Virus record (IMG/VR): IMGVR_UViG_3300021964_000024
Coordinates: 1 to 64,000 of that record
From: a virus
Length of the DNA stretch: 64,000 nt
Strand: one strand, 5' to 3'
Shown in pieces: positions 1 through 22,427 of the stretch. The notes beneath the pieces are model-generated. The model searched no databases. It saw nothing but the letters and a program-made list of their open reading frames with translations, and was not told the DNA's origin. The translations under genes and the position numbers were made by a program. Position 1 is the first letter of the stretch; the number at the start of each line of letters is the position of its first letter.

Positions 1-3000
1 GCGGGGAAGTTCTGATATAACAAGTTTGATTGATCTGAGTAACGAGGTTGTCCTGCAGCCGCAGTAAATGTCACAACACTATCACGAGTCGATGTACGAG
101 TATATGCACTGACACGGTTTCTTACACTGGTGCGACTGTATGCAGAGAATCTGGTTCTCGTTGAAATACGAGTGTACGCAGAAACTCTGTTACGAGTACT
201 GATTCGAGTGTAAGCACTTACACGGTTTCTAGTATAATCTGTTGCACGAGTTCTACTGTATGCAGAGTATCTTGTTCTCGTTGAAATACGGGTACTGTCA
301 CGAGTATAGGCAGATGGACGAGTACGGGTACTGATTCGAGTATAGTTACCCGTAAAGTTACCCGCATAGAATCCGGTACGCACATAGTCACCCACGAAGT
401 TACCCGCATAGAATCCTATGCGAGTGTAGTTACCCGTGAAGTCACCTGCATAGAATCCTATACGAGTGTATGGTAAAATACGAGTTGACGTTCTTGTACT
501 GATACGAGTATAGTTACCTGTATACGACAGAATTCTAGTATAGTTACCTGTGTAATACAGAATTCTAGTATAGTTACCAGTGTAGTATACAATACGTGAG
601 TAGTTTCCAGTGAAGTTACCTGCATAGTAACCAGTACGCACATAGTTACCAGTATAGTTTACAATACGAGTGTAATTTCCAGTGAAGTTACCTGCGTAAT
701 AAAGAGTACGTGAGTAGTTACCAGTAAAGTTACCCGCATAGTAACCAGTACGCACATAATCACCCGTAAAATAATTACCTGTCTTTGGCCCGAATCGATC
801 ACGAGTATAGTTCAATATACGAGTTGATGTACGAGTCGATATACGAGTGTATGAAGCAGCCGCTGCTCTAGTTCGAGTTGATATACGAGTGTAAGCAACA
901 GTTGCGGGTCTAACACGAGTATATGCCAGAATACGAGTTGACGTTCTTGTACTGATACGAGTATATGCAACAGTTGCAGCACGTGCACGAGTGTACGTTC
1001 CGGTTGCGGTACGTATTCGAGTATAGGTGCCTGTCGCAGTACGAATACGAGTATAGTTTCCAGTGAAGTTACCTGCATAATAACCTGTACGGTTATACGT
1101 CAAAATACGAGTTGACGTGCGGGTAGATATTCTGGTATAATCTAAGATACGTGTACTAGTTCGAGTACTTGTTCTTTGATAGTTAAGAATTCTTGTTGAG
1201 GTACGTGTTGAGATACGAGTATAGTTTCCAGTATAGTTACCTGCAAAGTTACGGGAATAGTTACCTACAAAGTTGCCTGTATAGTTCCCTACAAATCCAC
1301 GTGCATAGTTCCCTACGAAATTACCAATATAGTTACCAACAAAAGTTCTGCTGTAGTTACCCGTATAATTTCCGACAAAAGTTCTAGAATAGTTACCTGT
1401 GTAGTTACCCGCAAATCCACGTGAGTAGTTACCGACATAGTTACCTACAAAGGTTCTAGAATAGTTACCTGCAAAGTTACCAGAGTATGCAAGAATCTCA
1501 TCACGAGTATATGTAGAAATACGACCACGTGTACTAGTTCGAGTATAGGTAGAAAAACGAGTACGTGCAGAAATACGTGTAGAAGTACGTGCGTAGTTAC
1601 CTACGTAGTTTCCTGCAAATCCACGTGCGTAGTTACCGACAAATGTTCTGGAGTAGTTACCGACAAATGTTCTTGAGTAATTACCTACGAAGTCACCCGT
1701 GAAAGTGACAAGACGATCAATTATATATGCAGAAGGACGACCACGTGTGTAATTACCTACAAAGTCACCTGCATAGTTCGAGGGACGTGTTCTAGTGTAA
1801 GTTGACACACGAGTTCTAGTGTAGTTTCCTACAAAGTTACCTGCGTAAGTAGAGTTTCTAGTTCTGGTGTATGTAGATACTCTGGTACGTGAGTAGTTAC
1901 CTATAAAGTTACCCACGAATGTAGTTGTATAATCATCAATATATATTGATGATCGAGTTCTAGTATAAGTCGATACACGAGTTCTTGTACTGTTACGAGT
2001 GTAAGCAGATACACGGTTCCTTGCATAGTTACCTATGTAATCGCCCAAGAATCCTCTGGTACTGGTTCTGGTATATGCACTTGATCTGTTTCGTGTATAT
2101 GCAGAAACTCTGGTTCTACTGTAAGTATCAGAGTAAGTGGACACACGAGTACGACTATAATTACCGACAAAGTTACCAATGTAGTTGCCGATAAAGTCCG
2201 TGGTATATGCAGAAGTACGAGTTCTGGTGTATGAACTAATACGGTTACGTGTACTGTTTCTGGTGTATGTAGAAAAACGAGTACGAGCGTAATTGCCTAT
2301 GAAGTTACCGACAAACGTATTGAGACTATCACGAGTGTAAGTCGAGATACGATTTCTACTGTAGTTACCTAAAAAGTTTCTTGAGAATGTGTTCGTGCTA
2401 TTACGAGTATAAGTTGAGACACGGTTTCTTGAATAGTTTCCAGTATACTCTCCTGCGTAATCTCCTGCAAAACCACGAGTGTAGTCACCAATGAAATTAC
2501 GGGAGAAGTTACCTATGTAATCCCCAATGAAATCACGAGCGAAATTTTGAGTACTGTTTCTAGTGTACGTTGAACCACGAGTACGGGTGTAAGCTGATCC
2601 ACGAGTTCTCGCATATGAGGATGCACGAGTACGAGTATATGCAACCTCAGAAGTTGTTCGTCTGGTATTAGTCGCAGTCCCTTTGGATGCCCAAGTTCCT
2701 GCAGCGGTTGGTGCACCTTGAGTAGCAGAGCGTAACTGATACGATCCAATTGCACCTGATACACCACGCAATGTTTTACAGTGTTGACCCAGTGTAAACT
2801 TGATCTGCGGATCAGTCATCTCTTGAAGACCACCAAATGATCCTGCCGAGTCTGATCCTATGAGACCTACCGATTGGATTTGTGTCGGTGCGGTCATTGC
2901 TGTTCGTTTGTAGATGTTATAAGTCGATATAGTACCATTGGCGGTAGTGTCTTCGAAGACTCCAGAAATGTGAGTTGAGTAATCACCACTTGGAGAAGAA

Positions 3001-3443
3001 GAACCTAATTTATATACGCCTGGGTAATCAGATGTCGCAATACGTGAGTTCAGACGTGTACACAAAGTGTCCATGTCTGAGTCTGTAAACTCATGAAGAC
3101 CTACGTTTCCGGATGCATTCCATCCGGCGGGACGAACGTAATTTGCATTACTCAGATCACCTGCAGTAATGTTACCACCCTTTTGATACAGAGTAGTTGT
3201 AGTTGATCCGGAAGTAATTGCAGATGCGGGATGAGTACCGTCTGGTTCGTTGTAAAAAGTATCAACAAAAGAACCTATGTTGGTTCCTTGAGCATTTACG
3301 TTTAGAGATCCGTTACCTGTAACCCCTGCTTCACCTAACTTTAATCCCGCCTGATAGGCCAAATAGTTCTCTTCCGTAGGAGTCATCTCCTTCAGATCAC
3401 CATTTGTTCCTTCTAATTTTAGTGGGATATTAGACGCAGCCAC
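1..3443 (-). CDS. Self-complementary tetrapeptide-repeat virion fibre protein, paralog 1 (>1147 aa, runs off the left end; absent from ORF track)
   Basis: Hand translation from GTG at 3443 gives MAASNIPLKLEGTNGDLKEMTPTEENYLAYQAG..., homologous to the N-terminus of 3493..6411. The frame is open to position 1. Repeats start at 2639 (YTRT RASS ... FVGN YSRT). A late promoter lies at 3478-3485. Confidence 0.9.
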   Translation of the reverse strand, partial: MAASNIPLKLEGTNGDLKEMTPTEENYLAYQAGLKLGEAGVTGNGSLNVNAQGTNIGSFVDTFYNEPDGTHPASAITSGSTTTTLYQKGGNITAGDLSNANYVRPAGWNASGNVGLHEFTDSDMDTLCTRLNSRIATSDYPGVYKLGSSSPSGDYSTHISGVFEDTTANGTISTYNIYKRTAMTAPTQIQSVGLIGSDSAGSFGGLQEMTDPQIKFTLGQHCKTLRGVSGAIGSYQLRSATQGAPTAAGTWASKGTATNTRRTTSEVAYTRTRASSYARTRGSAYTRTRGSTYTRNSTQNFARDFIGDYIGNFSRNFIGDYTRGFAGDYAGEYTGNYSRNRVSTYTRNSTNTFSRNFLGNYSRNRISTYTRDSLNTFVGNFIGNYARTRFSTYTRNSTRNRISSYTRTRTSAYTTDFIGNYIGNFVGNYSRTRVSTYSDTYSRTRVSAYTRNRSSAYTRTSTRGFLGDYIGNYARNRVSAYTRNSTRTRVSTYTRTRSSIYIDDYTTTFVGNFIGNYSRTRVSTYTRTRNSTYAGNFVGNYTRTRVSTYTRTRPSNYAGDFVGNYTRGRPSAYIIDRLVTFTGDFVGNYSRTFVGNYSRTFVGNYARGFAGNYVGNYARTSTRISARTRFSTYTRTSTRGRISTYTRDEILAYSGNFAGNYSRTFVGNYVGNYSRGFAGNYTGNYSRTFVGNYTGNYSRTFVGNYIGNFVGNYARGFVGNYTGNFVGNYSRNFAGNYTGNYTRISTRTSTRILNYQRTSTRTSTRILDYTRISTRTSTRILTYNRTGYYAGNFTGNYTRIRTATGTYTRIRTATGTYTRARAATVAYTRISTRTSTRILAYTRVRPATVAYTRISTRTRAAAASYTRISTRTSTRILNYTRDRFGPKTGNYFTGDYVRTGYYAGNFTGNYSRTLYYAGNFTGNYTRIVNYTGNYVRTGYYAGNFTGNYSRIVYYTGNYTRILYYTGNYTRILSYTGNYTRISTRTSTRILPYTRIGFYAGDFTGNYTRIGFYAGNFVGDYVRTGFYAGNFTGNYTRISTRTRPSAYTRDSTRISTRTRYSAYSRTRATDYTRNRVSAYTRISTRNRVSAYTRISTRTRFSAYSRTSVRNRVSAYTRTSTRDSVVTFTAAAGQPRYSDQSNLLYQNFP

Positions 3444-3492: not shown

Positions 3493-6411
3493 TTAGGCTG
3501 TACGAACATATAACGTATATGTGTCAACGGCAAGTACCGTGTTGCCGATTGTTTGACCTACGTAATCTCCTATAAAGCTTCTTGAATAATTTCCTACAAA
3601 CGTGCGTGAGTAGTTACCAGTATAGTTCCCCGCAAAACCACGAGAGAAATTTTGAGTACTGTTTCTAGTATATGTAGAGACTCTTGTACGAGTAAAGTCT
3701 CTCGTTGATGTACGAGTTGAATCTAAAGTACTGTTTCTAGTGTATGCACTTATACGAGTTCTGGTATAGTTACCAAGGAAGTCGCCAGTGTAGTTACCTG
3801 TATAATCTCCCACATATGCTCTAGCGTAATTGCCGACATACGCAGACGGTCTGGTTCTTGCGAAAGAACTTGTTCTGTTAACCCTTGTGTAATTACTGAC
3901 ATAGTTACCCGTGTAATTTCCTGCGAATCCACGTGTATAATTTCCTACGTAAGCTGCATCAATTGTGTAGGAAGACACTCTGGTTCTATTGTACGAAGAA
4001 AGACGAGTACGAGTCGAGGTTCTTGTACTAATACGAGTATAGTTTCCTATATAGTCACCCGCAAAGTTACGAGTGTAATCACCCACGTAGTTACCTGCAA
4101 AGTTACGAGTAAAGTTCCTTGCATAGTTACCTGTATAGTTGGGTATGTAATCACCTACGTAGTTACCCGTAAAGGTTCTGTTGTAGTTACCCACGAATGC
4201 ACGAGCGTAATTACCAACATACGCACGTGAAAAATCTTGAGTGAAGTTTCCTCCAATATAGTCACCTGTGTACACGTCCTCGTTGATGTAATCACCTACG
4301 TAGTTACCTGCAAAGTTACGAGAGTAAGTAGAAGATCGATTTGCTGTACTATCTCTAGTATAGTCACCAATAAAGAATCCAGTACTATCACGAGTATAGG
4401 CAGAGAACCTAGTTGTGGTGAAGTTACGAGCGAAACCACCGGCACCATAATCACCAATAAAATCACCAGTGTAATAGAATGTAGACGCTCTATCTCTGGT
4501 AAAGACCTGTCCAGATTTAGGTTCTCCTACGTAGTCACCAGTATAGTATACTGTATTGGTACTTGTTGCTGTACGATTACGAGTATAAGAGAGACCGGCA
4601 TAATCACCAATGTAATCAACATTTCTAGTAAATACAGATTCACCTGTTTTTCTAGTAGTCACAAATCCAGTATATTCAAAAACGGATGTTCTGGTTCGAG
4701 TGTAATTAGGTATAAAGAGTCTAGAGAAATTACCTGTAAACGATCTCGAATAATTACCTGCATATTGTACTACCCTATCTCTTGCATACTCACCAATGAA
4801 ATTGCCAGCAAAGTTGCGTGAGTAGCTAGACACTCTAGTACGTGTAGAGGTACGAGTAAAATTCGAAGACCTAGTTCGAGTGTAATTTCTAGAGAAGTTA
4901 CCTGTAAAGTTTCTGGTATAGTTACCCGCATAGTTACGAGTGTAATCACCTGCGTAAGAAGATGGTCTAGTACGTGTTGACGTTCTAGTAAACCCTACAG
5001 TTCTTGTATAATCATCACTGTAGTTTCTAGCATAATTCGATACACGAGTACGTGTAGAAGTACGAGTATAATTCGAGGGACGGGTTCTGGTTGAAGTCCT
5101 CGTGTAATTACCTAAGTAGTTACCGGCAAAATTACCTGCGAATCCACGACTATAGTTACCAATAAAATCCCTAGAGAAGGTAGAAAATCTGTCTCTGGTA
5201 TATGCAGAAGTTCTAGTGCGTGTTGATACTCTAGTAAAGTTACCGGCATAGTTACCCGTATATCCATCAGGGTCAGTATAGTTACCTATGAAATTACGTG
5301 AGTATTCACCTGCAAAATTACGAGAGTAAGTGCCTATGTAAGTGTCTGAAAAAACACTAGTACTATTACGAGTATAATTACCTAAGAAGTTACGTGAGTA
5401 GTTACCAGTAAAGTCTCCGGTATAGTTACCAATATAATCTGCAGTATAGTCACCAATAAAGTTTCTGGTATAGTTACCTGTAAAGTCACCAAGATAATTT
5501 GATGTTCTGGTTCTAGTAGAGACTCTAGTATATGCACTTGATCTGTTTATAGTATACGTAGAAACTCTTGATCGAGTATAGTTCTGTTCGTCTACTAGAC
5601 GAATTGTATTTGTTGCAGTTCCTTTTGATACCCATGTACCTACTGCGGGTGCACCCTGAGTTGCAGTACGAATTAAATAAGATCCAAGGTTATCTTGAAT
5701 CGCTCTACGAGTCTTTGCACGTTGTCCAAGAGTGACCTTAACTTGACGATCAGTTACTTTCTGTAATCCTTGATATGTACCAGACGATCCACTACTTCTC
5801 TTAATCGACATGATAGCAGATTCACCATTCTTATCGTCACGAATAGAAGTGGGTGCGGTCATAGAAGTTCTACGCCAGACACTATAATCGTTGATCGTAA
5901 ATGCACTACCTGAACTGTCTGCACGTTGATCCACAAGAATACTTGGAACCAATATATCCCAGTCAGCACTAGGACGGGTTGCAGAAAGTCTCAGAGAGCC
6001 AGGATACTCAGATTGTGCAATTCGAACGTTTAGATCGTCTACGAGAGTGTTCAGATTAGAACTGTTCATCTCATAGACATCACCGTCAAAGTGTGCTACA
6101 GGTAATCGGAAATCACTATCGGTTTCTGCCGCAGTACCGTTGATCTGATATATGCTTTGTGACGTAGTAACAACAGACTGTTGATCGTATGGGTGAGTTC
6201 CTACAGGTTCAGGAAAGTACGTATCGGTCAGTGTACCAATAAGTCGGTTGCCAGTAGATGTGGTTGTAAGAAGACCGACATCTGAACTATCGGCCACAGC
6301 ATTATGACTACCTACTAAGTATGCAAGGTAGTTTTTCTCTGCAGAGGTGATCTGTTGTAGCTTACCATCACTGTCTTTTAACTTTAACGGTAATGCCTTA
6401 TTATCCGACAT
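3493..6411 (-). CDS. Self-complementary tetrapeptide-repeat virion fibre protein, paralog 2 (972 aa)
   Basis: About 277 aa globular N-domain, then about 670 aa of [YF]xG[ND] / xTRx / RxSx units, then a short C-terminal strand; lies in the tail-fibre region. Confidence 0.85.
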   Translation of the reverse strand: MSDNKALPLKLKDSDGKLQQITSAEKNYLAYLVGSHNAVADSSDVGLLTTTSTGNRLIGTLTDTYFPEPVGTHPYDQQSVVTTSQSIYQINGTAAETDSDFRLPVAHFDGDVYEMNSSNLNTLVDDLNVRIAQSEYPGSLRLSATRPSADWDILVPSILVDQRADSSGSAFTINDYSVWRRTSMTAPTSIRDDKNGESAIMSIKRSSGSSGTYQGLQKVTDRQVKVTLGQRAKTRRAIQDNLGSYLIRTATQGAPAVGTWVSKGTATNTIRLVDEQNYTRSRVSTYTINRSSAYTRVSTRTRTSNYLGDFTGNYTRNFIGDYTADYIGNYTGDFTGNYSRNFLGNYTRNSTSVFSDTYIGTYSRNFAGEYSRNFIGNYTDPDGYTGNYAGNFTRVSTRTRTSAYTRDRFSTFSRDFIGNYSRGFAGNFAGNYLGNYTRTSTRTRPSNYTRTSTRTRVSNYARNYSDDYTRTVGFTRTSTRTRPSSYAGDYTRNYAGNYTRNFTGNFSRNYTRTRSSNFTRTSTRTRVSSYSRNFAGNFIGEYARDRVVQYAGNYSRSFTGNFSRLFIPNYTRTRTSVFEYTGFVTTRKTGESVFTRNVDYIGDYAGLSYTRNRTATSTNTVYYTGDYVGEPKSGQVFTRDRASTFYYTGDFIGDYGAGGFARNFTTTRFSAYTRDSTGFFIGDYTRDSTANRSSTYSRNFAGNYVGDYINEDVYTGDYIGGNFTQDFSRAYVGNYARAFVGNYNRTFTGNYVGDYIPNYTGNYARNFTRNFAGNYVGDYTRNFAGDYIGNYTRISTRTSTRTRLSSYNRTRVSSYTIDAAYVGNYTRGFAGNYTGNYVSNYTRVNRTSSFARTRPSAYVGNYARAYVGDYTGNYTGDFLGNYTRTRISAYTRNSTLDSTRTSTRDFTRTRVSTYTRNSTQNFSRGFAGNYTGNYSRTFVGNYSRSFIGDYVGQTIGNTVLAVDTYTLYVRTA

Positions 6412-6427
6412 TCTACTTCCTACTTTG

Positions 6428-9400
6428 TTAGTTTAGTAGAGTGCCACTCTCATCATAGATTAGGACAGCCCTACTTGCTAGTTCGTTCAACGCATTAACG
6501 ATATTATCATTATTTATACTCGCAGTAGCGAAGAATCCACCGTCCGTACTTGAGTCTAAATTATACAGTTTTCCAACTCTTGAGTCAAGTTCCGCAATGT
6601 CACTGTCATTTGAGACTATATCAGCATGGAGTTCGTTGATACCACCCGCAACATCTTGTGCAGTAGTATCAAGGTTTTCGTCTGTATGAAGAGCACGTCC
6701 ATGAATCTCGACTTTACTTGCAGTCATCTCCACCGCAAGAGTAGATCCAGACCAGATATCTAGTTCACCACTACTGTTCTGTAAACGACCAAACTGAGTT
6801 CCTGCATCCTTGAGGTATATGTCACCACCATCTGCATCAAGAGTGATATCTCCTGCAACATCATATGTCAAGGATCCTACAACATCAATCTCTTGGTTGG
6901 TGCCAAGGTTGTAGGTCAACTTAGTTACTGCATTATCCTTAAAGAATATATCCGCACCGTTTGCATCTAGTACGATGTCACCGTCTGCATCCAATGTGAT
7001 ATTGGATCCTGCAGTGATAGTTGTGTTACCACCTGAAGTGATACTCTGGGTTGTTCCTGCAGTTGATGCAATTGCACCTGTCGCAATCTCTGAGATACTT
7101 GCAGCACTATCTGTTAGTGCACCAGTTATAGTGTTTGCATGGTTTCCTGTGGTTGCAACAGTATTTGTTGTACCTAAAGTATAACCGATACGGGTTGTAC
7201 CCGCATCCTTTAAGGTGATGTTGTCACCACCTGCATCTAATACTATATCACCTGCAACGTCAAGTGTCAAGTTACCAGATGGAACATCAATCTCTTTGTT
7301 TGTTCCTGCAATGAATTCGAACTGAGTAGTACCGTTGTCTTTGATGTAGGTGTTCCCACCATCAGCATCAAGAGTAATGTCTCCTGTTGCGTCTACGATA
7401 AAGTTACCAGATACGTCTACCTCTTGATCAGTACCAAGATTCCAAGTAAGCTTTGTTACACCTGCTTGTTTGAAGTAGATATCATCTCCGTCTACGTCAA
7501 GAGAAATATCTCCGGACGCATCTACTACAAAGTCCCCAGTCACATTGTGGGTTTGCCCCAATGACGTTGTAGTCAAAGTACCTAAAGTAGTACTTGACAT
7601 ATTTCCAGTAGATGTTATACTGTATGTACCATTCGCTGAATCAGAATAGTTACCTGATACTGTACGGTCTAGATTACCAGTGACATCCAGAGTATTCGTT
7701 GCACCCATACCATACGCAAATCGTGTAGTACCTGCGTCTTTGAAATCAATGTCTGCACCGTTTGCATCAAGGACAATATCCCCTTCTGCATCTACAGTAA
7801 AGTTACCCTCTGCATCAATAAGAGCATTACCCCCTGCAGCGATAGTAGCGTTACCATCGGCAGTCATGGCGATTGCACTGTTAGTATATACAGTGAATCC
7901 ATCGGATGCATTTATTGTACGGATACCGGATGCTGAGTCGGTGTGATCACCAGTAACATCCATTGTGTAATTACTAGATACCGTTTGTGCAAGTGATCCA
8001 GTTACATCTAAAGTATTGGCAGCACCCATACCATATGCAAAACGAACAGTCGTACCATCTTTTAGGTCGATGTCACCACCGCCAGCATCTAGAACGATAT
8101 CAGTTTCAACGTCATAGGTCAGAGATCCTGCAACATCAATCTCTTGATCTGCACCTAAGTTATACGTAAACTTGGTCTGACCACCGTCTTGAAAATAGAT
8201 GTCTGCACCGTGAGTATCCAAAGTGATATCATCAGATGCATCTACTTTATAAGTTCCGGTCACTGTATGGAGTTGTGCACCAGACTTAGTGTTGAATGTG
8301 CCAGAAGTGCTAACGTCAGTGTTTCCAGTCGCACCGATATGATACGTACCTGCTGCACTGTCTGAGTAATTACCCGATACGGTTTGTGTTAGGTTTCCAG
8401 TGACATCAAGTGTATTGGAAGCACCCAACCCGTATTCAAAACGAGAGTTTCCATTATTTTTGAAGGTAATGTCGGTTCCACCGGCATCAAGTACAATATC
8501 TTGAGCAACATCAAGAGTATATCCTGTTGCTCCGGACACGGTATGTAAATAGTTTCCTGTGGATGCTAACGTTAATCCCGATCCACCTAATGTGTAGGTT
8601 TGATGATCCCCACCATTCAATTGAAGTTTAAAGACATCATTAAGTTGGAAAGTGACATTGCCCTCAACATCCGCAAGATAGTTTCCACGGACAATATGTG
8701 TCTGACCATAACTAAGAGTATCTAAAGCACCAGTAGCACCAATATGGTAGGTGCCATTTGCACTGTCTGACATATTACCAGATGTGGTCTGAGTAAGATT
8801 ACCTGTAATGTCTAATGTGTTGGTTGTACCAAGTCCATATTCGAAACGAGAAACACCTGCGTGTTTAAAGTCGATATCGTTACCACCTGCGTCGAGAACA
8901 ATGTCTCCCGCAACGTCATAAGTCAAAGAACCTGCTACGTCTACTTCTTGGTTTGTACCCAAGTTGTAAGTAAATTTGGTTGTTCCTGCTTGCTTAAAGT
9001 AGATGTCATCTCCATCTACGTCAAGTGTAATATCTCCTACTGCATCTACGATGTAGTTAGAAGGTGCAGCAATTGTGAAGTCTGCGTTATCTGCAAGAGT
9101 GTGAGTTACAGTATCAGCACCCGCACCGTTCTTAAATACGATGTCGTTGCCGTCTGCATCAAGAGTGATGTCTCCACTTGCATCTATTAATACGTTACCA
9201 GTTACCGTGGCAGTCAGATTACCACCAGAGGTAAAGTCCATGGTGCCAGTTGCGTTCAGATCATATAGACCAGAAACGTCAATATCATAAGCACCAGTTA
9301 CGTTCTGGTAGTTGGTTGTACCTAAAGTAAATGCAATGCGATTGACTGAATCATCAAGGAAATTGATGTTCGATCCACCTGCATCTAAATTGATATCTGC

Positions 9401-9712
9401 GACAGCATCTATGAATGTATCATTACCTGATTTCAGGATGATATCAGTACCACCATTCTGAGCAGTAGAGATTAGGAGTCTAGTGTTAGTTTCATAACTA
9501 GAACCTTCGTCCCATTTACTTCCGTTCTGGGGATAAAGAATTTCACCCGAAGAAGCATCGAATACCAGTTCAATTTCGTTGATAGCAGATACAACATCAC
9601 TATCATTATAGGTATTGAGGTCAACGGGATCGCCTACGTTATAAGAAACCGTATTGAGATTGTCTCTTAGTATCTTGAACGAGTCGCTTAATCTTGTAAA
9701 AGGACGTGCCAT
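6428..9712 (-). CDS. Long tail fibre/spike with beta-helix repeats
   Basis: About 13-14 copies of DI[TV]LDAxGxDIxFK; short helical motifs (VSAINEI, AGGINEL, VNALNEL) at both ends, typical of trimeric fibres. Confidence 0.7.
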   Translation of the reverse strand: MARPFTRLSDSFKILRDNLNTVSYNVGDPVDLNTYNDSDVVSAINEIELVFDASSGEILYPQNGSKWDEGSSYETNTRLLISTAQNGGTDIILKSGNDTFIDAVADINLDAGGSNINFLDDSVNRIAFTLGTTNYQNVTGAYDIDVSGLYDLNATGTMDFTSGGNLTATVTGNVLIDASGDITLDADGNDIVFKNGAGADTVTHTLADNADFTIAAPSNYIVDAVGDITLDVDGDDIYFKQAGTTKFTYNLGTNQEVDVAGSLTYDVAGDIVLDAGGNDIDFKHAGVSRFEYGLGTTNTLDITGNLTQTTSGNMSDSANGTYHIGATGALDTLSYGQTHIVRGNYLADVEGNVTFQLNDVFKLQLNGGDHQTYTLGGSGLTLASTGNYLHTVSGATGYTLDVAQDIVLDAGGTDITFKNNGNSRFEYGLGASNTLDVTGNLTQTVSGNYSDSAAGTYHIGATGNTDVSTSGTFNTKSGAQLHTVTGTYKVDASDDITLDTHGADIYFQDGGQTKFTYNLGADQEIDVAGSLTYDVETDIVLDAGGGDIDLKDGTTVRFAYGMGAANTLDVTGSLAQTVSSNYTMDVTGDHTDSASGIRTINASDGFTVYTNSAIAMTADGNATIAAGGNALIDAEGNFTVDAEGDIVLDANGADIDFKDAGTTRFAYGMGATNTLDVTGNLDRTVSGNYSDSANGTYSITSTGNMSSTTLGTLTTTSLGQTHNVTGDFVVDASGDISLDVDGDDIYFKQAGVTKLTWNLGTDQEVDVSGNFIVDATGDITLDADGGNTYIKDNGTTQFEFIAGTNKEIDVPSGNLTLDVAGDIVLDAGGDNITLKDAGTTRIGYTLGTTNTVATTGNHANTITGALTDSAASISEIATGAIASTAGTTQSITSGGNTTITAGSNITLDADGDIVLDANGADIFFKDNAVTKLTYNLGTNQEIDVVGSLTYDVAGDITLDADGGDIYLKDAGTQFGRLQNSSGELDIWSGSTLAVEMTASKVEIHGRALHTDENLDTTAQDVAGGINELHADIVSNDSDIAELDSRVGKLYNLDSSTDGGFFATASINNDNIVNALNELASRAVLIYDESGTLLN
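6511..6518 (-). promoter_or_regulatory. T4-type late promoter TATAAATA (inside the 3' end of the upstream fibre gene)
   Basis: Exact consensus 100 nt upstream of the 6411 start. Confidence 0.6.
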
Positions 9713-9982
9713 TTATAGTTTCTCTACTAGTTGTGAAAGTAAAGATTTTATATCTCGCATATCATTCTCTAACGAGTCAACCTTTGACTGCAGTACAGAT
9801 TCGTTAGCTTTTCTTTCCGCTTCCTTCATCTGTCTCTGTCTCTTTGCCTCACGTGCAAGATGAATCTCTCTTGTATTTATATTAATAATTGCATTAGATT
9901 CAGGACATCTTCCTAAATCAGGTTCGTCTTTCACTCCAATCAATTTTCTCTGTTTTACTGTCATATTAAATCGCCAGTGCAA
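9713..9982 (-). CDS. Small coiled-coil protein downstream of VrlC
   Basis: LGRCPESNAIINI followed by a coiled coil (LENDMRDIKSLLSQL); usual neighbour of VrlC-like genes in marine T4-like phages. Confidence 0.7.
   Translation of the reverse strand: MHWRFNMTVKQRKLIGVKDEPDLGRCPESNAIININTREIHLAREAKRQRQMKEAERKANESVLQSKVDSLENDMRDIKSLLSQLVEKL
9874..9881 (-). promoter_or_regulatory. Possible late promoter TATAAATA
   Basis: Exact consensus about 160 nt upstream of the fibre gene start; lies within a coding sequence. Confidence 0.45.
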
Positions 9983-12900
9983 TTGCCCTCAAGTCACGGA
10001 ATGATGGTACTTGTGCAGAGTTAGTTGACTGCATAACAAGTTTTAACTGGAACGAAGTGAACTTAGCCAAGTTACCGCCCTCACCACCAATTAGATACTG
10101 GTATTCACGGAATACGTTCTTATTGGAATCCGGAGAATGATTTACTGCAGGTTGTACAAGGTTCCATGCGTTAGTGTGAATTGACTCAGCACCAGTTGAT
10201 GTTCTCCAGTACAATTGGAAGTCACACGCTTTAGGTTTGTTAGCAGCCAAGAAGACTTTCAAACCAACCGCATCGGTTGCCAAAGTGGTCACCTTAGTGA
10301 TATGTTTCGCAGATTCAGTACCCGCATTTGGGTGAGTCTCAGGAACATATGTAAGTGGTACGTTAAATCCTGCAACACTAGTAGATTGTACGTTTGCAGC
10401 TTCACTGATTGTAGTGACATTATCAGTCGATGCGATACTAGTCGCACCGTCTGTTACAGACCATGTACCCGTAGACGAAGAGTGAACACTCACACTAAAC
10501 TGAGATCCATCTGATCTAGAGATAACTAGACCATCGGAATCCCCTTCAACTGAAGAGAATACATAACCTCTTCTGAAGGAAGGATATCCTTGAGGAATAG
10601 TCTGACCACCTACGAAGGACTGATTGAGTCTAACATTACCAATTCTAGTGTTAGTACTAGTCAACAATAGGTTAAGGTTTTCACCACTATCATATCCAGA
10701 GAAGGTCAGTGTCTTAGTAGTTGCTTCAACCCCACTGGTTTGTTTTGAAATCAAGTTATGTACACAGTCAACGTGTGCAGACTGCATATCAATAACAGGA
10801 GATACAAACGGATCAACAGTCTTCATGGTGATCTGCATCGTCAGAGATCTTTCACCATTCAACCCAGCAACAAGATTCTCTGTACTTCTGTTGTAGATAG
10901 CACGAGGAGTCTTGAACGTTGAGTTAGACTTGTTCTCAATGATTTGATACTTAGCATCTTTGACGAATCTAGTCTCACTACCCGCTAGAGATGATTGTGT
11001 AGTTGTCTTAATCGAAGTAGTAGCAGTAGTTCCTCTTGGTATCGTAATCTCAACTTCGGGTCTTAATTGTTCGTAGTTGATATTATGTTGAGAGGTAGCT
11101 GAACTACCACCAAACCATTTTCTGCTAGTTGCGGTTGCATCTGCAGTGTAGGTGAAACCAGAGTTGTCGTGCCTTACTACTGTTCTCTTACCAATTACTT
11201 GGTTACCAGTTAGACCGTTTCCAAGGTTTTCAGCAGAGTCGATACCACGAATCCATGCGATATCTCCAGTACGTAAACCATGACCTTGCATTAGTACACG
11301 AACTTGGTTACTGCCAGAGTCCATAAGTAAAGAATGTCTTCGCAACGGTACAGGAGGAATGTTAACATTCTCTAAGATAGCGTTACCAGAACTTCTAAAC
11401 TGTGCAACGTTAATTCTGTACGCCAGATCTTGGTTACTGGAAGGTTCCCAATGCCTGTTGTTCTGCGACTTAAACAACACACCCATAGTAGGTTGTTGAG
11501 TAATGAACGACTCAGTAGAACCAATTGCATGTTCACCAACAGTTGCGACATAAACATTATAGTTAGTGTCGTTTCTCTCAGGAACCAATACAATCGCATA
11601 CTCACCCTTAGACAAATACTGAGGTGCATCGAAAGTAAATGTAGTACTGTTCTTCAACATCGTTTTGTTGTTAGCACCAGTAGGTACTAGACTTACTTGA
11701 GCAGGAGTAAGTGTCTTCTTACAAATGACCTTTGTTGCAGATGGTACACCTTGTACTGTAGGTCTGATTTCGCAACGAACACCAGCTTCAGAAGACTTAC
11801 TCGCAAAGTAGACTTCAACCGAAGTGATAGTAATACCAGACTTTCTTTCTACTGCGAAAGTCTGAGCGAGAGGATCATGGTGAATCATAGCAACGTCTTC
11901 AGCAGTATGGGCAAACCCCCCTCTTGATGTTCGTGCTACCGTCGGTGATGGATGCGTCGAAGCAAGAACTTCTTGATCTGCTACAGATTGATCAAGTTCT
12001 GCTTGGAACTGTTGAGAACCTTTCTGGTTACCGCCACCACCATTGTCCGGATCACCACCACCTGGCGGTGTAGTATCTTGATTGGTGTCGGTGTGATCAA
12101 CTGGTTGGATACTATTCAGATAACTGTATTCGTAGCTAACTTCACTACCAATAAATTCTTCTGTAGTCTCAGTACCAGTTGTAATAACACTTGTAGTTGA
12201 AGTTGATTTGACATCTTCAGCAACCTCTGTCGTAACAACCGAATCTGTCCAAGTAGTTCTTTCAATTTCAGTATCTCTTGAGACATCGTTAGTGGTTGAT
12301 CCAACTACCTTCAGTACTCTTGTAATGTAGATCTCTTCTTCTCTGTGTTCTAGTACACCAGTAGATTCGAACATCGCTCTAGCGAAAGACATTCCTCCAC
12401 CAATATCAGCAGAGTTTACATCATTGAGTATGAATTCACGTTTACCAGTGTGGAAACGCATTGCTACGTTACTAGGAACTTCGAAAGATCCTTCAAATTT
12501 ACCATCAGCGTCAGCAATTAATTGAGTATATCCCGCACTGTGACCCTGAGTTTGTTTTTGTGTTCCGTTATCATCGCCTTCTCCTGATCTGCCACGAGCA
12601 GCTTCCTTAGAAGTCATGGTTTTAAATGGTTCTTCTCTACAGAAGTTGGAGACATTCGTCTTATCGAAGAATGGGAAGTATTGAGTGTTCGGACGTAATC
12701 CAGTCGCTTTGAACATAATCTCAATAGGTCTCATGAACGGAATCGCACTTACCTCTACGACTTTTTCACCCACCACGTCACGAATAGTTGACTCACTAGA
12801 AATACGGTTTACTGTACTTTCTGTGGTTGTAGTGGTAATGATTTCTGCAAGACCTTCATACTGATTATTAGTAGTAATAGTCTTTGTCTGTTCGTAAGTA

Positions 12901-15900
12901 GACGTATTTGTAGTTCTTACTGTATCACGAGTTTCTGTAGTTACGGTATCCCATTGTTCGGTAGTAACCTCATCAATCAGATATCTGTAATACCAACCAG
13001 TGTAATAACCATTCCATCCCCACCATTGACCGTTATAGTATTCACGGTTCCAATCGGTGTACCACAGATCCATATAATCCCACCATGCATCGATGGTAGT
13101 ACGAGAAACTTCTCTGTATTCACTGTCACGGTTAACTTCTACGGTTTCGGTAGATAGAACTTCAACGTCAGTTGTGTGACCAGTCTCAACCCACTCACCT
13201 TCTTCAACAACAGTTTCAGAACCAAGTAATGTAGGATCCTGTGCATCATAAGTTTGAGTTGTAGACGTACCAGAAATAAAACTACGTGCCTGATCACCGA
13301 CTTCTAGAGTAGAAGGGTCAACACCATACCACTCGTTTTCACTATTATTCCAGTTCAGTGATTGTGATAGATCAAACTCAGTTTTAGTTCCTAAGATCTT
13401 CTCACCTACAATCTCATGATCGTAGAACTTATCAATTTCTGGACTCAGGATTAAGTCACCATGAATCATAGGCACAAAGAACGGTGCGAGGTTTTCTGTA
13501 CCTGAAGCAAGTTCTTGTGATTGGAAAGGTTTTGTCTTGTAGTCCAACATTACGAAATCGTCTCTTAGGACTGTACGTAATTGTTTCGTATTGTCAGAGT
13601 CGTACCACAATCTGATATTGTTTTCTTGATATCTAGGACGTAAGAGTTTTCCTCTCTTATCGATAGCAGCACGGTATGAGTTGTTTTTCTTACCATTAAT
13701 CTTGGTTTGAGAATAAGCATGGTTGGAGAAATTGTCTACAAAGAATCCTGCTTTAGTTCTATCCAAACCGGCAGAGTCTAAAACCTGCAAGAACTTAGTG
13801 TTAAGTTCTAGTAACGACAGGGTAGTCATTTCTTCAAGTCGGTCTAGTTTTTGTTCCAACTTGTTGATGTCTGCCATCGTATAACCCTTACGTGGAATAA
13901 GGGATGTCTTCAGATCACGTGCATGAAGCGTGTTAGGATTCAAACGAATTTTGTACAGATCCATACAATCTTCTGGTACTTCTGGGTACTTCGGATTTAA
14001 TGAAGGCGAACCTTCAAGAAGACGTAATTCACCGTCTCTTGAAATTACAAGTTTGTCTGCACGAGGAAGATAGTATTCTGCCTTTGCCTCTATTGTATTT
14101 GTAGGTACAGGAAGAGGAGGTACGGTTGTAAAACCTCCAGAACCATCTGTAGAGGGACGGAAGTCTAGAGCATCTCTCAGAGATACTTTACCACCATCGG
14201 GTAGTGCTTGTGCAGGAATTTTCAGGTAGTCTAATTGACCACTGTAAGAGTTAACCGCAAAGAACTCACCCGTAGGAGAGTGAGAGAAGTACTTGAATCT
14301 TACAAAGATAGGAATACCATCACTATCAAGACCACCACCAGACCAGATCAAACGTCCGTCATCGTAGTGAGTCATCGTGCCACCGGCATCGAAACTGAAG
14401 TGTGGGAAAATATCATCACCGTTAGAATCGACAGTACGAACTCTATCGATACTGTAAATATCTGATTTACCAAGGTTCAGTACTTGCAATCCATTACCAA
14501 CTTCTTCTAGAGAAGCAGTAACAGTCGCTTCTGTCAACGTCTTAGTCTTAATACTTGCATTTGTCTTATTGATAAAAACGATTACTTCGTATGAAGTGTT
14601 TCCGGTCAGACCACTGAAAATGATCTGCGAGTTACCAGCTTGAATATCTGCACTTGCACCCGAAGCAGGGAATTGTGTACTAGACGCAATGATAATATCA
14701 TTTTCGTTTACAAAAGATTCACCTGCGTCTGTTAGATTTAAAGTGTAAGTAGTCGCTCCAACACCAGTAGTGAAGTTTTCCTTTCTCATGAAAGTATAGG
14801 AAACGTCCGTGAAACTTTTCGGTCTCGCTAATGGAGTATCAAACAACAACGCTGTCTTTCTTGGTTCATGAAGAATCGCTTGATTACCAGTAGTAGGAAC
14901 AAGGTTGATTAAATCATTGTTGGCTGCGGATTTGATAGACCTTACATCTTCAATTGTAAAATTGAAGTTGGTTCTATTCAAATTAAATATGTGTGCCTTG
15001 TAAGGGATATTCCTTTGATACTGTGCCAGTGATCCCGAAGACAGTCTGTACTGTGCACCATTTCTTCCTTCAGTGATTGCACGGATATTACCTACAGCAA
15101 TCTGTGCTCCAGTACCATCGTATCCACTGTAGAGTCGAACTCTTTCTGCAGTATCAATATCCAACATCCCTTGACCACTGTCAAAGAAATAGAAGTTACC
15201 GTAGTCGATACCGACTTGTTCATCTTCATCGACAAACGTATCAATCGCTTTTCTAAGAGGAATACTTTGCGTCATCATAGTTGCTGCTCGATGACCGTCG
15301 ATATAGGCAGTGCCGGGATCGATCTTCATCATCAAGTAGTTTGAATTGATGTTTGCATTTGGTTCGAATCTAAGTTTCCAGTACTTCTTAATGAAGTCAC
15401 CGTTGATTTCTTTGACACGAGTATTGACAAACTTCTTGACTTCGTTATAACCATCTGTAGAAGTTACTTGTCGAATTACTTTACCGTTCTGTACGGTTGC
15501 GAAGTAAACAAAAGACTCACCGATAATAAAGTCAGTTTTCTTAATGAGTATTAATCGGATACGATATCTGTCAGCACCAGGCGAAGAACGGTTAGGTGTT
15601 ACGTTTTGGTTATCGTATAATGCTTCGGTGTCATTAACAGTAACAATGTCTTGTACAAGTTTAAAACCAACGTCCTCAGATCTAAATGCATTGTACTTAC
15701 CAAGGAAGATAGTCTGTTTCGGAACGAATACGAAGTGACCTTTTACATAGAAGGTAGATTCACCAATAGAAATAGTACTACCAAATCCAACTGCAGGGTT
15801 TGCAGTAGTGTTGGTTGATTGAACCGTAAAGTTAACGTTTGACCCATTAGACAAAGTTTCGCCAGGCGTTACTGTAGCAGTAACTTTAAACTTTGTGTTA

Positions 15901-16319
15901 ACAGAGACCGTGGACGGGTTGTCCAAATACTGAACATAAAGTGTGTCAGGATCTCCACCATCAGTTGCGGGTACTGCTTCCAATACCTTAACTTTAATAG
16001 AGGAAGAGGAACCAGTTAAGTTGACACCTACTAGTGCAGTAGGATCACTGAAAGAGTTATTCTGATCTGCTGAAATTTTTACGAATGCATATGAGTTGTT
16101 TACAGAAACCCCACCCGCAGATACAGGAACACCGTCTTTCTGGAAGATGTTGTCAGCAAATCTTGAGATCTCCTTTTGGATGATCGTTTGCATCTGTGTA
16201 AGTTCACGTGCCTGTAGTGCACGACCCGCATTAAATAGAATGCGAGAGTAATTATCACTATCTTTAAAATCGTCCTTGTAGGTCGATCTAAAAGTTTGTT
16301 CAGTAAACGTATTTGGCAT
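9966..16319 (-). CDS. VrlC-like (DUF4815) large baseplate/virion structural protein
   Basis: N-terminal YKDDF...YSRILF..GRALQARELTQMQTI, SPGADRYRI, GFFVDNF, DPLAQTF and C-terminal DLRAIAL motifs. Confidence 0.85.
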   Translation of the reverse strand: MPNTFTEQTFRSTYKDDFKDSDNYSRILFNAGRALQARELTQMQTIIQKEISRFADNIFQKDGVPVSAGGVSVNNSYAFVKISADQNNSFSDPTALVGVNLTGSSSSIKVKVLEAVPATDGGDPDTLYVQYLDNPSTVSVNTKFKVTATVTPGETLSNGSNVNFTVQSTNTTANPAVGFGSTISIGESTFYVKGHFVFVPKQTIFLGKYNAFRSEDVGFKLVQDIVTVNDTEALYDNQNVTPNRSSPGADRYRIRLILIKKTDFIIGESFVYFATVQNGKVIRQVTSTDGYNEVKKFVNTRVKEINGDFIKKYWKLRFEPNANINSNYLMMKIDPGTAYIDGHRAATMMTQSIPLRKAIDTFVDEDEQVGIDYGNFYFFDSGQGMLDIDTAERVRLYSGYDGTGAQIAVGNIRAITEGRNGAQYRLSSGSLAQYQRNIPYKAHIFNLNRTNFNFTIEDVRSIKSAANNDLINLVPTTGNQAILHEPRKTALLFDTPLARPKSFTDVSYTFMRKENFTTGVGATTYTLNLTDAGESFVNENDIIIASSTQFPASGASADIQAGNSQIIFSGLTGNTSYEVIVFINKTNASIKTKTLTEATVTASLEEVGNGLQVLNLGKSDIYSIDRVRTVDSNGDDIFPHFSFDAGGTMTHYDDGRLIWSGGGLDSDGIPIFVRFKYFSHSPTGEFFAVNSYSGQLDYLKIPAQALPDGGKVSLRDALDFRPSTDGSGGFTTVPPLPVPTNTIEAKAEYYLPRADKLVISRDGELRLLEGSPSLNPKYPEVPEDCMDLYKIRLNPNTLHARDLKTSLIPRKGYTMADINKLEQKLDRLEEMTTLSLLELNTKFLQVLDSAGLDRTKAGFFVDNFSNHAYSQTKINGKKNNSYRAAIDKRGKLLRPRYQENNIRLWYDSDNTKQLRTVLRDDFVMLDYKTKPFQSQELASGTENLAPFFVPMIHGDLILSPEIDKFYDHEIVGEKILGTKTEFDLSQSLNWNNSENEWYGVDPSTLEVGDQARSFISGTSTTQTYDAQDPTLLGSETVVEEGEWVETGHTTDVEVLSTETVEVNRDSEYREVSRTTIDAWWDYMDLWYTDWNREYYNGQWWGWNGYYTGWYYRYLIDEVTTEQWDTVTTETRDTVRTTNTSTYEQTKTITTNNQYEGLAEIITTTTTESTVNRISSESTIRDVVGEKVVEVSAIPFMRPIEIMFKATGLRPNTQYFPFFDKTNVSNFCREEPFKTMTSKEAARGRSGEGDDNGTQKQTQGHSAGYTQLIADADGKFEGSFEVPSNVAMRFHTGKREFILNDVNSADIGGGMSFARAMFESTGVLEHREEEIYITRVLKVVGSTTNDVSRDTEIERTTWTDSVVTTEVAEDVKSTSTTSVITTGTETTEEFIGSEVSYEYSYLNSIQPVDHTDTNQDTTPPGGGDPDNGGGGNQKGSQQFQAELDQSVADQEVLASTHPSPTVARTSRGGFAHTAEDVAMIHHDPLAQTFAVERKSGITITSVEVYFASKSSEAGVRCEIRPTVQGVPSATKVICKKTLTPAQVSLVPTGANNKTMLKNSTTFTFDAPQYLSKGEYAIVLVPERNDTNYNVYVATVGEHAIGSTESFITQQPTMGVLFKSQNNRHWEPSSNQDLAYRINVAQFRSSGNAILENVNIPPVPLRRHSLLMDSGSNQVRVLMQGHGLRTGDIAWIRGIDSAENLGNGLTGNQVIGKRTVVRHDNSGFTYTADATATSRKWFGGSSATSQHNINYEQLRPEVEITIPRGTTATTSIKTTTQSSLAGSETRFVKDAKYQIIENKSNSTFKTPRAIYNRSTENLVAGLNGERSLTMQITMKTVDPFVSPVIDMQSAHVDCVHNLISKQTSGVEATTKTLTFSGYDSGENLNLLLTSTNTRIGNVRLNQSFVGGQTIPQGYPSFRRGYVFSSVEGDSDGLVISRSDGSQFSVSVHSSSTGTWSVTDGATSIASTDNVTTISEAANVQSTSVAGFNVPLTYVPETHPNAGTESAKHITKVTTLATDAVGLKVFLAANKPKACDFQLYWRTSTGAESIHTNAWNLVQPAVNHSPDSNKNVFREYQYLIGGEGGNLAKFTSFQLKLVMQSTNSAQVPSFRDLRAIALAI

Positions 16320-17707: not shown

Positions 17708-17716
17708 CTATCTATC

Positions 17717-18715: not shown

Positions 18716-18742
18716 TCTCTTTTACCTAAAGGTTATACTGTC

Positions 18743-18750
18743 TATTTATA
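18743..18750 (-). promoter_or_regulatory. T4-type late promoter TATAAATA
   Basis: Exact intergenic consensus upstream of 18715. Confidence 0.85.
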
Positions 18751-22393: not shown

Positions 22394-22419
22394 TATGGGT
22401 TCCTGTAATTATACAATTC

Positions 22420-22427
22420 TATTTATA
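22420..22427 (-). promoter_or_regulatory. T4-type late promoter TATAAATA
   Basis: Exact intergenic consensus upstream of gp25. Confidence 0.85.

What the first reader, a model, noticed from the sequence alone, without database searches (positions are those of the whole stretch)
1488..2639. Unpaired 96-tetramer arm predicts the sequence beyond the window
From 2639 to 1488, paralog 1 runs 384 aa in unbroken 4-residue register with no turn motif and no partner in the window. After the inner hairpin closes (EILA opposite SVVT), a non-repeat insert begins (FTAAAGQPRYSDQSNLLYQNFP). The code predicts roughly 385 more residues off-window. They should start approximately G R G G R G G G, then T T S T S T S T T, and end in a YxLYxR-like strand. 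That would give a protein over 1500 aa with arms of about 600 residues.
Basis: inference. Interest (0 to 1): 0.75.

Follow-up and report, generated by a model that had tools for sequence, protein, structure and literature searches.

The report
Self-pairing fold-back phage fibre protein

Summary
Observation confirmed and prediction supported. Window 1488-2639 (minus strand) is residues 269-652 of a 3'-open ORF (3-3443), 96 tetrapeptides in one register with no partner in the window.

The contig starts inside this gene, so there is no adjacent window. A metagenome contig (L022) carries a 98.7%-identical copy and reads straight through the window's last residues. That protein has 1758 aa.
- Then come 95 tetrapeptides, then ...ETYTLYVRTA.
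- 78 of 95 rungs are complementary without a gap at one register; the 60 other registers average 24% (max 40%).
- About one mirror axis, all 182 Arg face Tyr, Phe or Gly, and 83% of Tyr face Arg.
- In 20 relatives both arms have the same length (368-672 aa, outside L001's inner stem).

Best reading: a fibre of an uncultured T4-like marine phage, folded as one ~613-residue antiparallel hairpin whose register is set by a cross-strand code. The fold is inferred: AlphaFold2 failed on the paralog.

No Pfam, PHROG, PDB or paper match was found. This scan has already noted the same family on at least 12 other genomes.

The parts
3..3443 (-). Paralog 1 (P0001): the first 1147 of about 1758 codons of the fold-back fibre-like protein. 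It is cut by the start of the contig.
   Evidence: The full length comes from L022 and L023 (both 1758 aa).
2640..3443 (-). N-terminal globular domain (residues 1-268), the conserved family signature. It ends in a ...GSYQLRS... strand.
   Evidence: No Pfam or PDB match. Conserved in over 120 metagenomic protein clusters.
1485..2639 (-). Outer ascending arm (residues 269-653, 96 tetrapeptides). This is the finding. Its partner lies off the window.
786..1484 (-). Inner ascending arm (residues 654-886): 22-24 tetrapeptides, then 10- and 14-residue units.
774..785 (-). Turn K-T-G-N (residues 887-890) inside the loop RFGPKTGNY. The mirror axis i+j = 1777 passes between T888 and G889.
75..773 (-). 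Inner descending arm (residues 891-1123). It mirrors residues 654-886; 70 of 70 Arg face Y, F or G.
   Evidence: the last line is computed on the window's own sequence
3..74 (-). First 24 residues (1124-1147) of the 230-aa beta-sandwich insert. The insert bulges out of the descending strand.
3493..6411 (-). Paralog 2 (P0002, 972 aa, complete). It has the same architecture on a smaller scale and ends ...DTYTLYVRTA.
   Evidence: stems 279-350/879-950 and 393-460/768-837 share i+j of about 1229-1230. Its orthologs score 24-52 antiparallel against 13-24 parallel.

Best explanation
What it is. The ORF at 3-3443 (minus strand) is the N-terminal 65% of a roughly 1758-residue virion fibre-like protein. 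It belongs to an uncultured T4-like marine myovirus and sits at the end of the baseplate and fibre gene module.

How it is built.
- A 268-aa N-terminal domain comes first.
- The chain then runs out for 613 residues as a repeat arm (residues 270-882).
- It reverses at a tight K-T-G-N turn.
- It runs back for 614 residues.
- The return path is interrupted once by a 230-aa carbohydrate-binding-module-like beta-sandwich.
- It ends in a conserved YTLYVR strand. I infer that this strand rejoins the N-terminal domain.

How the arms pair. Each four-residue unit on one arm faces a complementary unit on the other arm, in antiparallel order:
- xG[ND]Y faces TRx[S/R].
- xRxF faces xSxY.

At residue level, Arg always faces Tyr, Phe or Gly. 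Tyr mostly faces Arg. Phe mostly faces Ser. Gly mostly faces Arg or Ser.

The finding itself. The 96-unit arm at 1488-2639 is the outer ascending strand. Its partner is the last 95 units of the protein, beyond the contig start.

What the code does. The order of unit types is not periodic, so only one register gives a good match. It acts like a barcode that stops two very long, nearly uniform strands from slipping against each other.

Shown and inferred. Shown:
- the sequence complementarity;
- its unique register;
- the equal arm lengths across relatives;
- the fold of the insert.

Inferred:
- that the complementarity is physical antiparallel beta pairing within one chain;
- that the product is a host-binding fibre;
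- the oligomeric state, which is unknown.
For: The off-window part exists as predicted.
- L022 is 98.7% identical over the 1147 window residues and continues to 1758 aa. L023 (95% identical in the N-terminal domain) has the same length.
- The L022 gene upstream is the paralog-2 ortholog, so the synteny is the same.

Unit-level complementarity.
- Allowing gaps, the reverse complement of the N arm matches the far arm at 78 of 96 columns. A thousand unit shuffles give a mean of 46 and a maximum of 56. Block shuffles reach 66, the parallel reading 59, and other pairing codes 29-57.
- Without gaps, 78 of 95 rungs (82%) match at one shift. The 60 other shifts average 24% and reach 40% at most.

Residue-level rule.
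- About the axis i+j = 1777 (inner) and 2007 (outer, which equals 1777 plus the 230-aa insert), 182 of 182 Arg face Y, F or G.
- 83% of the 150 Tyr face Arg.
- Any other axis gives at most 81% for Arg, with a mean of about 30%.
- On the window's own inner hairpin, 70 of 70 Arg follow the rule.

Relatives.
- In 20 distinct full-length relatives (1279-3347 aa) the two arms of the best stem have equal length.
- In 19 of them the best stem begins at residue 259-270 and ends about 22 residues before the C-terminus. Their arm lengths range from 368 to 672 aa.
- In L001 (3347 aa) the best stem is an inner 244-aa one.
- L032 is one plain hairpin with a 43-aa loop. L008 lacks the insert and has a continuous 118-rung stem.
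- Where both sides of a rung differ between relatives, 63 cases keep complementarity and 21 lose it.
- Best antiparallel scores are 56-113 in the paralog-1 relatives tested, against 21-36 for the parallel reading and at most 15 for shuffles.

Other support.
- There are no DNA inverted repeats.
- The neighbouring genes are gp5-, gp25-, gp6- and gp8-like baseplate proteins and a fibre-connector-like protein.
- The insert folds with pLDDT 93 into a beta-sandwich. It resembles CBM4, CBM16 and CBM22 modules and phage tail-fibre, tailspike and tip-attachment domains.
Against: - There is no structural evidence for the arms. AlphaFold2 on the complete paralog 2 gave a mean pLDDT of 28.6, and its low-confidence strands form local hairpins, not the long-range ones proposed here.
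- The far arm was read from a 98.7%-identical contig, not from this genome.
- 17 of 95 rungs are not canonical under the four-class code.
- In more distant family members with other repeat flavours, the four-class code scores no better than controls.
- The arms carry 181 Arg against 49 Asp plus Glu. That is a very large net positive charge for a compact ribbon.
- Virion location and oligomeric state are untested.
Confidence: 0.8

Rival explanations
1. The complementarity is real but is satisfied between chains. Two or more copies lie antiparallel, head to tail or domain-swapped, so that arm 1 of one chain pairs with arm 2 of another.
For: A self-complementary palindrome fits a duplex as well as a hairpin, as in nucleic acids. 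Phage fibres are oligomers. No tool result separates the two readings directly.
Against: - The inner arms are joined by a four-residue turn lying exactly on the mirror axis.
- L032 has only a 43-aa loop between its arms.
- The conserved N-terminal domain and the C-terminal YTLYVR strand always occur together at the stem base.
- A head-to-tail fibre would have no distinct base and tip.
Confidence: 0.08
2. The arms do not pair strand to strand. They form some other repetitive fold, for example a beta-solenoid or an intertwined beta-helix with a 12-residue superperiod. The mirror relation would then reflect packing of layers or co-duplication history.
For: - Runs such as GGR GGR and TTS TTS have a 12-residue period, the coil size of the smallest known beta-helices (own knowledge).
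- AlphaFold2 did not find the long hairpin.
Against: - The superperiod is not constant: TS/GR pairs, triplets, and 10- and 14-residue units all occur.
- A solenoid needs neither antiparallel order nor equal arm lengths nor a single sharp register, yet all three are observed.
- Protein sequence cannot be inverted by duplication, so history alone cannot produce a mirror order.
Confidence: 0.08
3. Artefact: two low-complexity periodic arrays look complementary by chance or through composition.
For: Both arms use a small alphabet with period 4. Any G/R-rich run can be mapped onto a T/S-rich run.
Against: - Shuffles, block shuffles, 60 other shifts, the parallel order and three other codes all score far lower.
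- The 100% Arg rule holds at one axis only.
- A prediction made from the window alone was fulfilled on independent DNA.
Confidence: 0.01

Closest known systems
Receptor-binding tip of the T4 long tail fibre protein gp37 (collar D10 plus needle D11)
   Same: - It is a fibre protein of a T4-like phage whose chain goes out to a tip and comes back.
- D10 is made of residues 811-881 together with 1010-1026, and the elongated D11 of residues 882-1009 (PMC6957217, read).
- An N-side and a C-side segment therefore meet at the base, as proposed here.
   Different: - D11 is about 128 residues; here each path is about 613.
- The gp37 needle is held by His-coordinated iron (PMC6957217); these arms contain no His.
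- There is no sequence similarity.
- gp37 has no tetrapeptide units and no unit-by-unit complementarity.
- The trimeric state is known for gp37 and unknown here.
Short-repeat beta rods of phage tails (the gp5 C-terminal triple beta-helix with its octapeptide repeat; the triple beta-spiral of adenovirus fibre)
   Same: - Short sequence repeats build long beta-rich rods in baseplate and fibre proteins (PMC3004832).
- The neighbouring gene at 6428-9712 is of the gp5 type.
   Different: - Those rods are parallel, intertwined trimers without fold-back, with periods of 8 or about 15 residues.
- They show no mirror complementarity between the halves of one chain.
CBM4/CBM16/CBM22-type beta-sandwich modules and the distal domains of phage tailspikes and fibres (applies to the 230-aa insert only)
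   Same: - The AlphaFold2 model (pLDDT 93) matches CBM4, CBM16, CBM22 and CBM11 modules.
- It also matches the Klebsiella phage K2-2 tailspike, the Kp7 fibre gp52 and a phi812 baseplate protein (E 2.5e-5 to 1e-3).
- In BFVD it matches tail, tip-attachment and CenC-like proteins, with TM up to 0.87.
   Different: - No Pfam family reaches its threshold.
- Identity to the solved structures is 7-16%.
- Sugar binding is untested.
- Here the domain is inserted into one strand of a hairpin rather than placed at a terminus.
Nucleic-acid stem-loop (analogy only)
   Same: - A reverse-complement rule and a unique register.
- Bulges and an inserted domain on one strand.
- Arms that lengthen together, and paired changes in relatives.
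   Different: The pairing is between side chains across beta strands. The rule is degenerate (Arg faces Y, F or G), and nothing is templated or copied.
Single-layer beta-sheet rods (Borrelia OspA central sheet; staphylococcal SasG G5-E repeats). From my own knowledge, not tested here.
   Same: Long, thin beta structures that lack a conventional hydrophobic core.
   Different: Those are meanders of short strands within folded repeats, not two strands hundreds of residues long. No pairing code has been described for them.

Membership tests
T4 gp37/gp12-type fibre tip (collar plus needle) | Sequence homology to the collar or needle domains | tested here: not met
   Pfam and PHROGs give no fibre family for P0001 or P0002. 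A PDB sequence search with the N-terminal domain finds nothing.
T4 gp37/gp12-type fibre tip (collar plus needle) | His-x-His iron sites along the needle | tested here: not met
   There are 0 His in the 1227 arm residues.
T4 gp37/gp12-type fibre tip (collar plus needle) | Out-and-back chain topology, with the N-side and C-side segments meeting at the base | tested here: inconclusive
   The sequence mirror symmetry and the equal arm lengths fit this topology. No structure is available, because AlphaFold2 failed.
T4 gp37/gp12-type fibre tip (collar plus needle) | Homotrimer | not testable with these tools
   No multimer prediction or experiment was available.
Triple beta-helix / beta-spiral fibre repeats | A repeat of 8 residues (VxGxxxxx) or about 15 residues in a parallel trimer | tested here: not met
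   The period here is 4, with 10- and 14-residue units. The arms relate in antiparallel order, not parallel.
Carbohydrate-binding-module-like beta-sandwich (insert domain) | Beta-sandwich jelly-roll fold similar to CBM4/16/22 | tested here: met
   The model has pLDDT 93.2. Foldseek probability is 1.00, with TM 0.5-0.66 normalised by target length.
Carbohydrate-binding-module-like beta-sandwich (insert domain) | Membership of a curated CBM or lectin sequence family, and sugar binding | tested here: not met
   No Pfam family reaches its threshold. Binding was not tested.
T4-like baseplate and tail-fibre gene module | Position among the baseplate wedge, hub and fibre-connector genes | tested here: met
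   PHROG hits for gp5-, gp25-, gp6- and gp8-like proteins and a fibre-connector-like protein lie at 16334-24538. A gp5-type beta-helix protein lies at 6428-9712. The homologue in phage C48C1 follows a tail-fibre gene and a chaperone gene.
The fold-back repeat-arm family itself (undescribed) | N-terminal domain, two mirror-complementary arms of equal length, and a C-terminal YxLYxR strand | tested here: met
   - P0001 has the N-terminal domain and the arms.
- The near-identical L022 supplies the second arm and the YTLYVR end.

The most novel reading that the evidence does not exclude
A natural protein family uses a residue-level cross-strand code that writes the register of a two-stranded beta ribbon more than 600 residues long into the order of its four-residue units.
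- The rule: Arg opposite Tyr, Phe or Gly; Phe opposite Ser; Gly opposite Arg or Ser.
- The shaft can then be lengthened, shortened or given side domains by paired changes on both arms, much as an RNA stem evolves.
- That would make it a length-tunable, programmable fibre scaffold with no described equivalent.
Probability: 0.6. Interest if true: 0.9.

Novelty: categorically new. Interest (0 to 1): 0.85.

Why it matters
- **A new way to build a long fibre.** If the arms pair as the sequences imply, this is a very long, thin protein fibre of a new design. It would be a rare case where long-range tertiary contacts can be read directly from the sequence.
- **A testable pairing rule.** It gives structural biology and protein design a natural, testable rule for beta strands.
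- **A register mechanism.** It explains how register can be kept over hundreds of near-identical repeats.
- **Marine phage biology.** It marks a widespread, unannotated fibre family: over 120 clusters at 90% identity in metagenomes, but only one of 50,697 deposited phage genomes. Its shaft length and its lateral or tip domains vary between relatives, which makes it a plausible determinant of host recognition.
- **Assembly.** It also explains why assemblies break inside these genes.

Tried and rejected
1. Looked for the adjacent sequence in the window's own genome. The contig starts inside the gene, a circular join gives a nonsense tail, and no other period-4 ORF exists on the 105.8-kb contig.
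2. An exact 45-nt search of viral contigs found nothing. A megablast against deposited phages found nothing.
3. AlphaFold2 of the complete paralog 2 with a nine-sequence alignment gave mean pLDDT 28.6 and is unusable. Only residues 241-270 and 961-972 exceed 50, which is at most a faint hint that the C-terminal strand meets the end of the N-terminal domain.
4. These searches gave no informative match:
   - Pfam and PHROGs on the whole proteins;
   - Pfam and PDB on the N-terminal domain;
   - Pfam and PDB on the insert;
   - the protein atlas on paralog 2's N-terminal domain.
5. A DNA palindrome as the cause is rejected: there are no inverted repeats.
6. The four-class unit code applied to 83 more distant family members is informative only in the clades near paralogs 1 and 2. 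Other repeat flavours need their own rules.
7. Mutual information on a reduced alphabet located the mirror axis only weakly, because the periodic background is high. The Arg-partner count was far sharper.
8. The first mirror layout assumed a symmetric 9-residue loop (axis 1774) and was off by three. The axis is 1777.
9. Literature searches found no description. The terms covered cyanophage fibres with tetrapeptide repeats, cyanomyovirus cryo-EM, T4-like cyanophage fibres with beta-hairpins, and C48C1.
10. Calling the phage a cyanophage is rejected. The nearest gp6 relatives are C48C1 (40%), Methylophilales phage Melnitz (34%), S-PM2 (35%) and Pelagibacter phage HTVC008M (33.5%), so the host is unknown.
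Full report
**What is at the coordinates**

The minus strand of window 3-3443 is one open frame of 1147 codons that runs off the window start. It has four parts:
- Residues 1-268 form a non-repetitive domain.
- Residues 269-741 form an array of four-residue units in one unbroken register.
- A stretch of 10- and 14-residue units follows, around the loop RFGPKTGNY (residues 883-891).
- The 24 residues before the window edge begin a non-repeat sequence ending ...LLYQNFP.

The finding's interval, 2639 to 1488, is residues 269-652, which is 96 units. I sorted units into four classes:
- G = xG.[YF]
- R = x[RK].[YF]
- S = x[ST].[YF]
- T = xR.[STRN]

Under that rule, residues 654-749 pair with 1027-1122 at 23 of 24 units. 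The 96-unit arm finds nothing in the window. Its best scores are 18, 14 and 19 against the rest of the protein, itself and paralog 2. The observation therefore stands.

**There is no adjacent window**

The window is bases 1-64000 of a single 105,814-bp contig. The contig begins inside this gene and ends inside a DNA polymerase gene. Joining the two ends gives a short nonsense tail. No other ORF on the contig has the period-4 signature. The assembly simply broke inside the repeats.

**Finding the missing part**

A scan of metagenome contigs with the N-terminal domain returned two useful loci.
- L022 (9670 bp) is 100% identical in that domain. Over all 1147 window residues it is identical at 1132 with no indel, and at 3402 of 3443 bases.
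- L023 is 95% identical in that domain.
- L022 reads on through ...LLYQNFP without a break.
- The gene upstream in L022 is the ortholog of paralog 2, so the locus is the same.

Both copies encode 1758 residues. Beyond the window edge come three things:
- the rest of a 230-aa globular domain;
- 95 tetrapeptides in unbroken register (residues 1357-1736);
- 22 residues ending ETYTLYVRTA.

**Testing the prediction**

- The far arm begins G R G G R G G G, T T S T S T S T, exactly as predicted for 16 units. The 17th is ITDY rather than a T unit.
- Allowing gaps, the reverse complement of the N arm matches the far arm at 78 of 96 columns with one gap. A thousand unit shuffles give a mean of 46 and a maximum of 56. 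Shuffling whole blocks reaches 66, the parallel reading 59, and the other pairing codes 29-57.
- Without gaps, one shift gives 78 of 95 rungs (82%). The other 60 shifts average 24% and never exceed 40%.
- The total ascending path is 613 residues and the descending path 614.
Off-window sequence is 611 residues, not about 385.

**A residue-level rule**

I took mirror partners as i+j = 1777 for the inner hairpin and 2007 for the outer stem. The two differ by exactly the 230 residues of the insert.
- All 182 Arg of the arms face Tyr (69%), Gly (25%) or Phe (6%).
- 83% of the 150 Tyr face Arg.
- Phe faces Ser most often (48%).
- Gly faces Arg or Ser (70%).
- At every other axis tried, the Arg figure is at most 81% and averages about 30%.
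- On the window's own sequence alone, 70 of 70 Arg in the inner hairpin obey the rule.

The axis passes between T888 and G889. The reversal is therefore a two-residue turn closed by K887 and N890. This is the geometry in which i+j stays constant along a beta-hairpin (inference from standard hairpin geometry).

I tested the rule here myself.

**Relatives**

- Twenty distinct full-length relatives from viral and metagenome contigs (1279-3347 aa) all end in YxLYxR.
- In 19 of them the best stem starts at residue 259-270 and ends about 22 residues from the C-terminus.
- In the 3347-aa C48C1 protein (L001) the best stem is an inner one, 877-1120 against 1545-1788.
- In all twenty the two arms have the same length. 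Outside L001's inner 244-aa stem, that length ranges from 368 to 672 residues.
- L032 is a plain hairpin with a 43-aa loop. L008 lacks the insert and has one continuous stem of 118 rungs.
- Between relatives, rungs that differ on both sides keep complementarity in 63 cases and lose it in 21. One-sided changes number 101. These pairwise counts are not independent events.
- The best antiparallel score under the code is 56-113 in the paralog-1 relatives. The parallel reading gives 21-36 and shuffles at most 15.
- The relation is not a DNA palindrome, because the gene has no inverted repeats.

**Paralog 2**

The gene at 3493-6411 shows the same plan with shorter stems. Both stems share i+j of about 1230. 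Its orthologs score 24-52 antiparallel against 13-24 parallel.

**Context and the insert**

The upstream genes match baseplate hub, wedge and fibre-connector families. The neighbouring gene is a gp5-type beta-helix protein.

The only deposited phage with this family is C48C1. There a 3347-aa homologue follows a tail-fibre gene and a chaperone gene.

The phage is a divergent T4-like marine myovirus of unknown host.

The insert has these properties:
- It belongs to a large unnamed family: 1453 representatives at E up to 1e-3 and 284 at E up to 1e-30.
- It folds with pLDDT 93 into a beta-sandwich.
- It resembles CBM4, CBM16 and CBM22 modules and the distal domains of phage tailspikes, fibres and tip-attachment proteins.

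A glycan-binding side domain about 380 residues up the shaft is a reasonable inference. It is untested.

**Mechanism proposed**

The chain folds back on itself into one very long two-stranded antiparallel ribbon.
- One face would carry alternating Tyr-Arg and small-small (Gly-Ser or Gly-Arg) cross-strand pairs.
- The other face would carry Thr, Val, Ile and Asn.
- The non-periodic order of unit types fixes a single register.
- The N-terminal domain and the C-terminal strand would form the base.
- The turn, or a tip domain in other family members, would form the far end.
- If fully extended at about 0.33 nm per residue, the shaft could reach about 200 nm. That is an upper bound from geometry, not a measurement.

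**Weaknesses**

- AlphaFold2 failed on paralog 2 (mean pLDDT 28.6).
- The oligomeric state is unknown.
- The arms have 181 Arg against 49 acidic residues.
- My four-class code is uninformative in distant family members with other repeat flavours.

**Known relatives and novelty**

- The nearest described design is the T4 gp37 tip. There the chain also goes out and back, and the N-side and C-side segments share the collar (PMC6957217). It is far shorter, is held by iron-histidine sites, and has no unit code.
- No Pfam, PHROG or PDB relative and no paper was found.
- Notes from this same scan describe the same family on at least 12 other genomes, and follow-up agents there reached the same reading. 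Those are unchecked AI notes and I do not count them as evidence.

**Verdict**

The fold-back reading is strongly supported by sequence statistics but is still structurally unproven.

Noticed in passing
window 6428-9712 (-): A 1094-aa protein made of gp5-type beta-helix repeats (DITLDADG... motifs). It hits DUF2345 and PHROG baseplate assembly and hub families. It lies directly upstream of the two fold-back genes.
   Followed up: partly
window 9966-16319 (-): A 2117-aa protein matching phrog_358 (unknown function, E 2.9e-302). It sits between the baseplate wedge genes and the fibre genes.
   Followed up: no
L022:5004-5693 (residues 1124-1353 of the full-length protein): - The 230-aa insert belongs to a large family with no Pfam model (1453 representatives).
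- Many members are proteins of about 450 aa with this domain at the N-terminus. The one of these that gave a Pfam hit (P0127) carries a Laminin_G_3 domain at its C-terminus.
- The family also includes a 2518-aa protein (P0142) with PKD repeats and a Por_Secre_tail C-terminal sorting domain.
   Followed up: partly
proteins P0005-P0123: - The family has other repeat flavours between the same N-terminal domain and the YTLYVR end.
- One flavour uses FAGTR-based 6-, 10- and 11-residue units (P0029, P0030).
- Another has Tyr every fourth residue without Arg (P0014-P0017).
- Another has acidic or Phe-rich units (P0013, P0025).
- Their pairing rules were not worked out.
   Followed up: no
L001:9001-19044 (phage C48C1, OQ984149.1): A 3347-aa homologue with several inserted globular domains. 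It contains a duplicated block of about 60 residues. The same CBM-like domain appears to occur within it.
   Followed up: no
arms of the full-length protein (L022 residues 270-882, 892-1125, 1357-1736): - The composition is extreme: T 17%, R 15%, Y 12%, G 10%, with no His, Cys, Lys, Met or Trp.
- There are 181 Arg against 49 Asp plus Glu.
- First-reader notes list many glycosyltransferases and a sulfotransferase on this contig.
- Whether the Ser-, Thr- and Tyr-rich arms are modified is an open question.
   Followed up: no
orthologs L011, L013, L014: In these clades, xGTY units in runs of xGTY-T-S triplets lie opposite xGNY-type units. These are G:G rungs, a fifth pairing that the four-class code counts as a mismatch.
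   Followed up: no
window 1 and contig end 105814: The contig breaks inside the repeat gene at one end and inside a DNA polymerase gene at the other. The genome held is therefore incomplete.
   Followed up: yes
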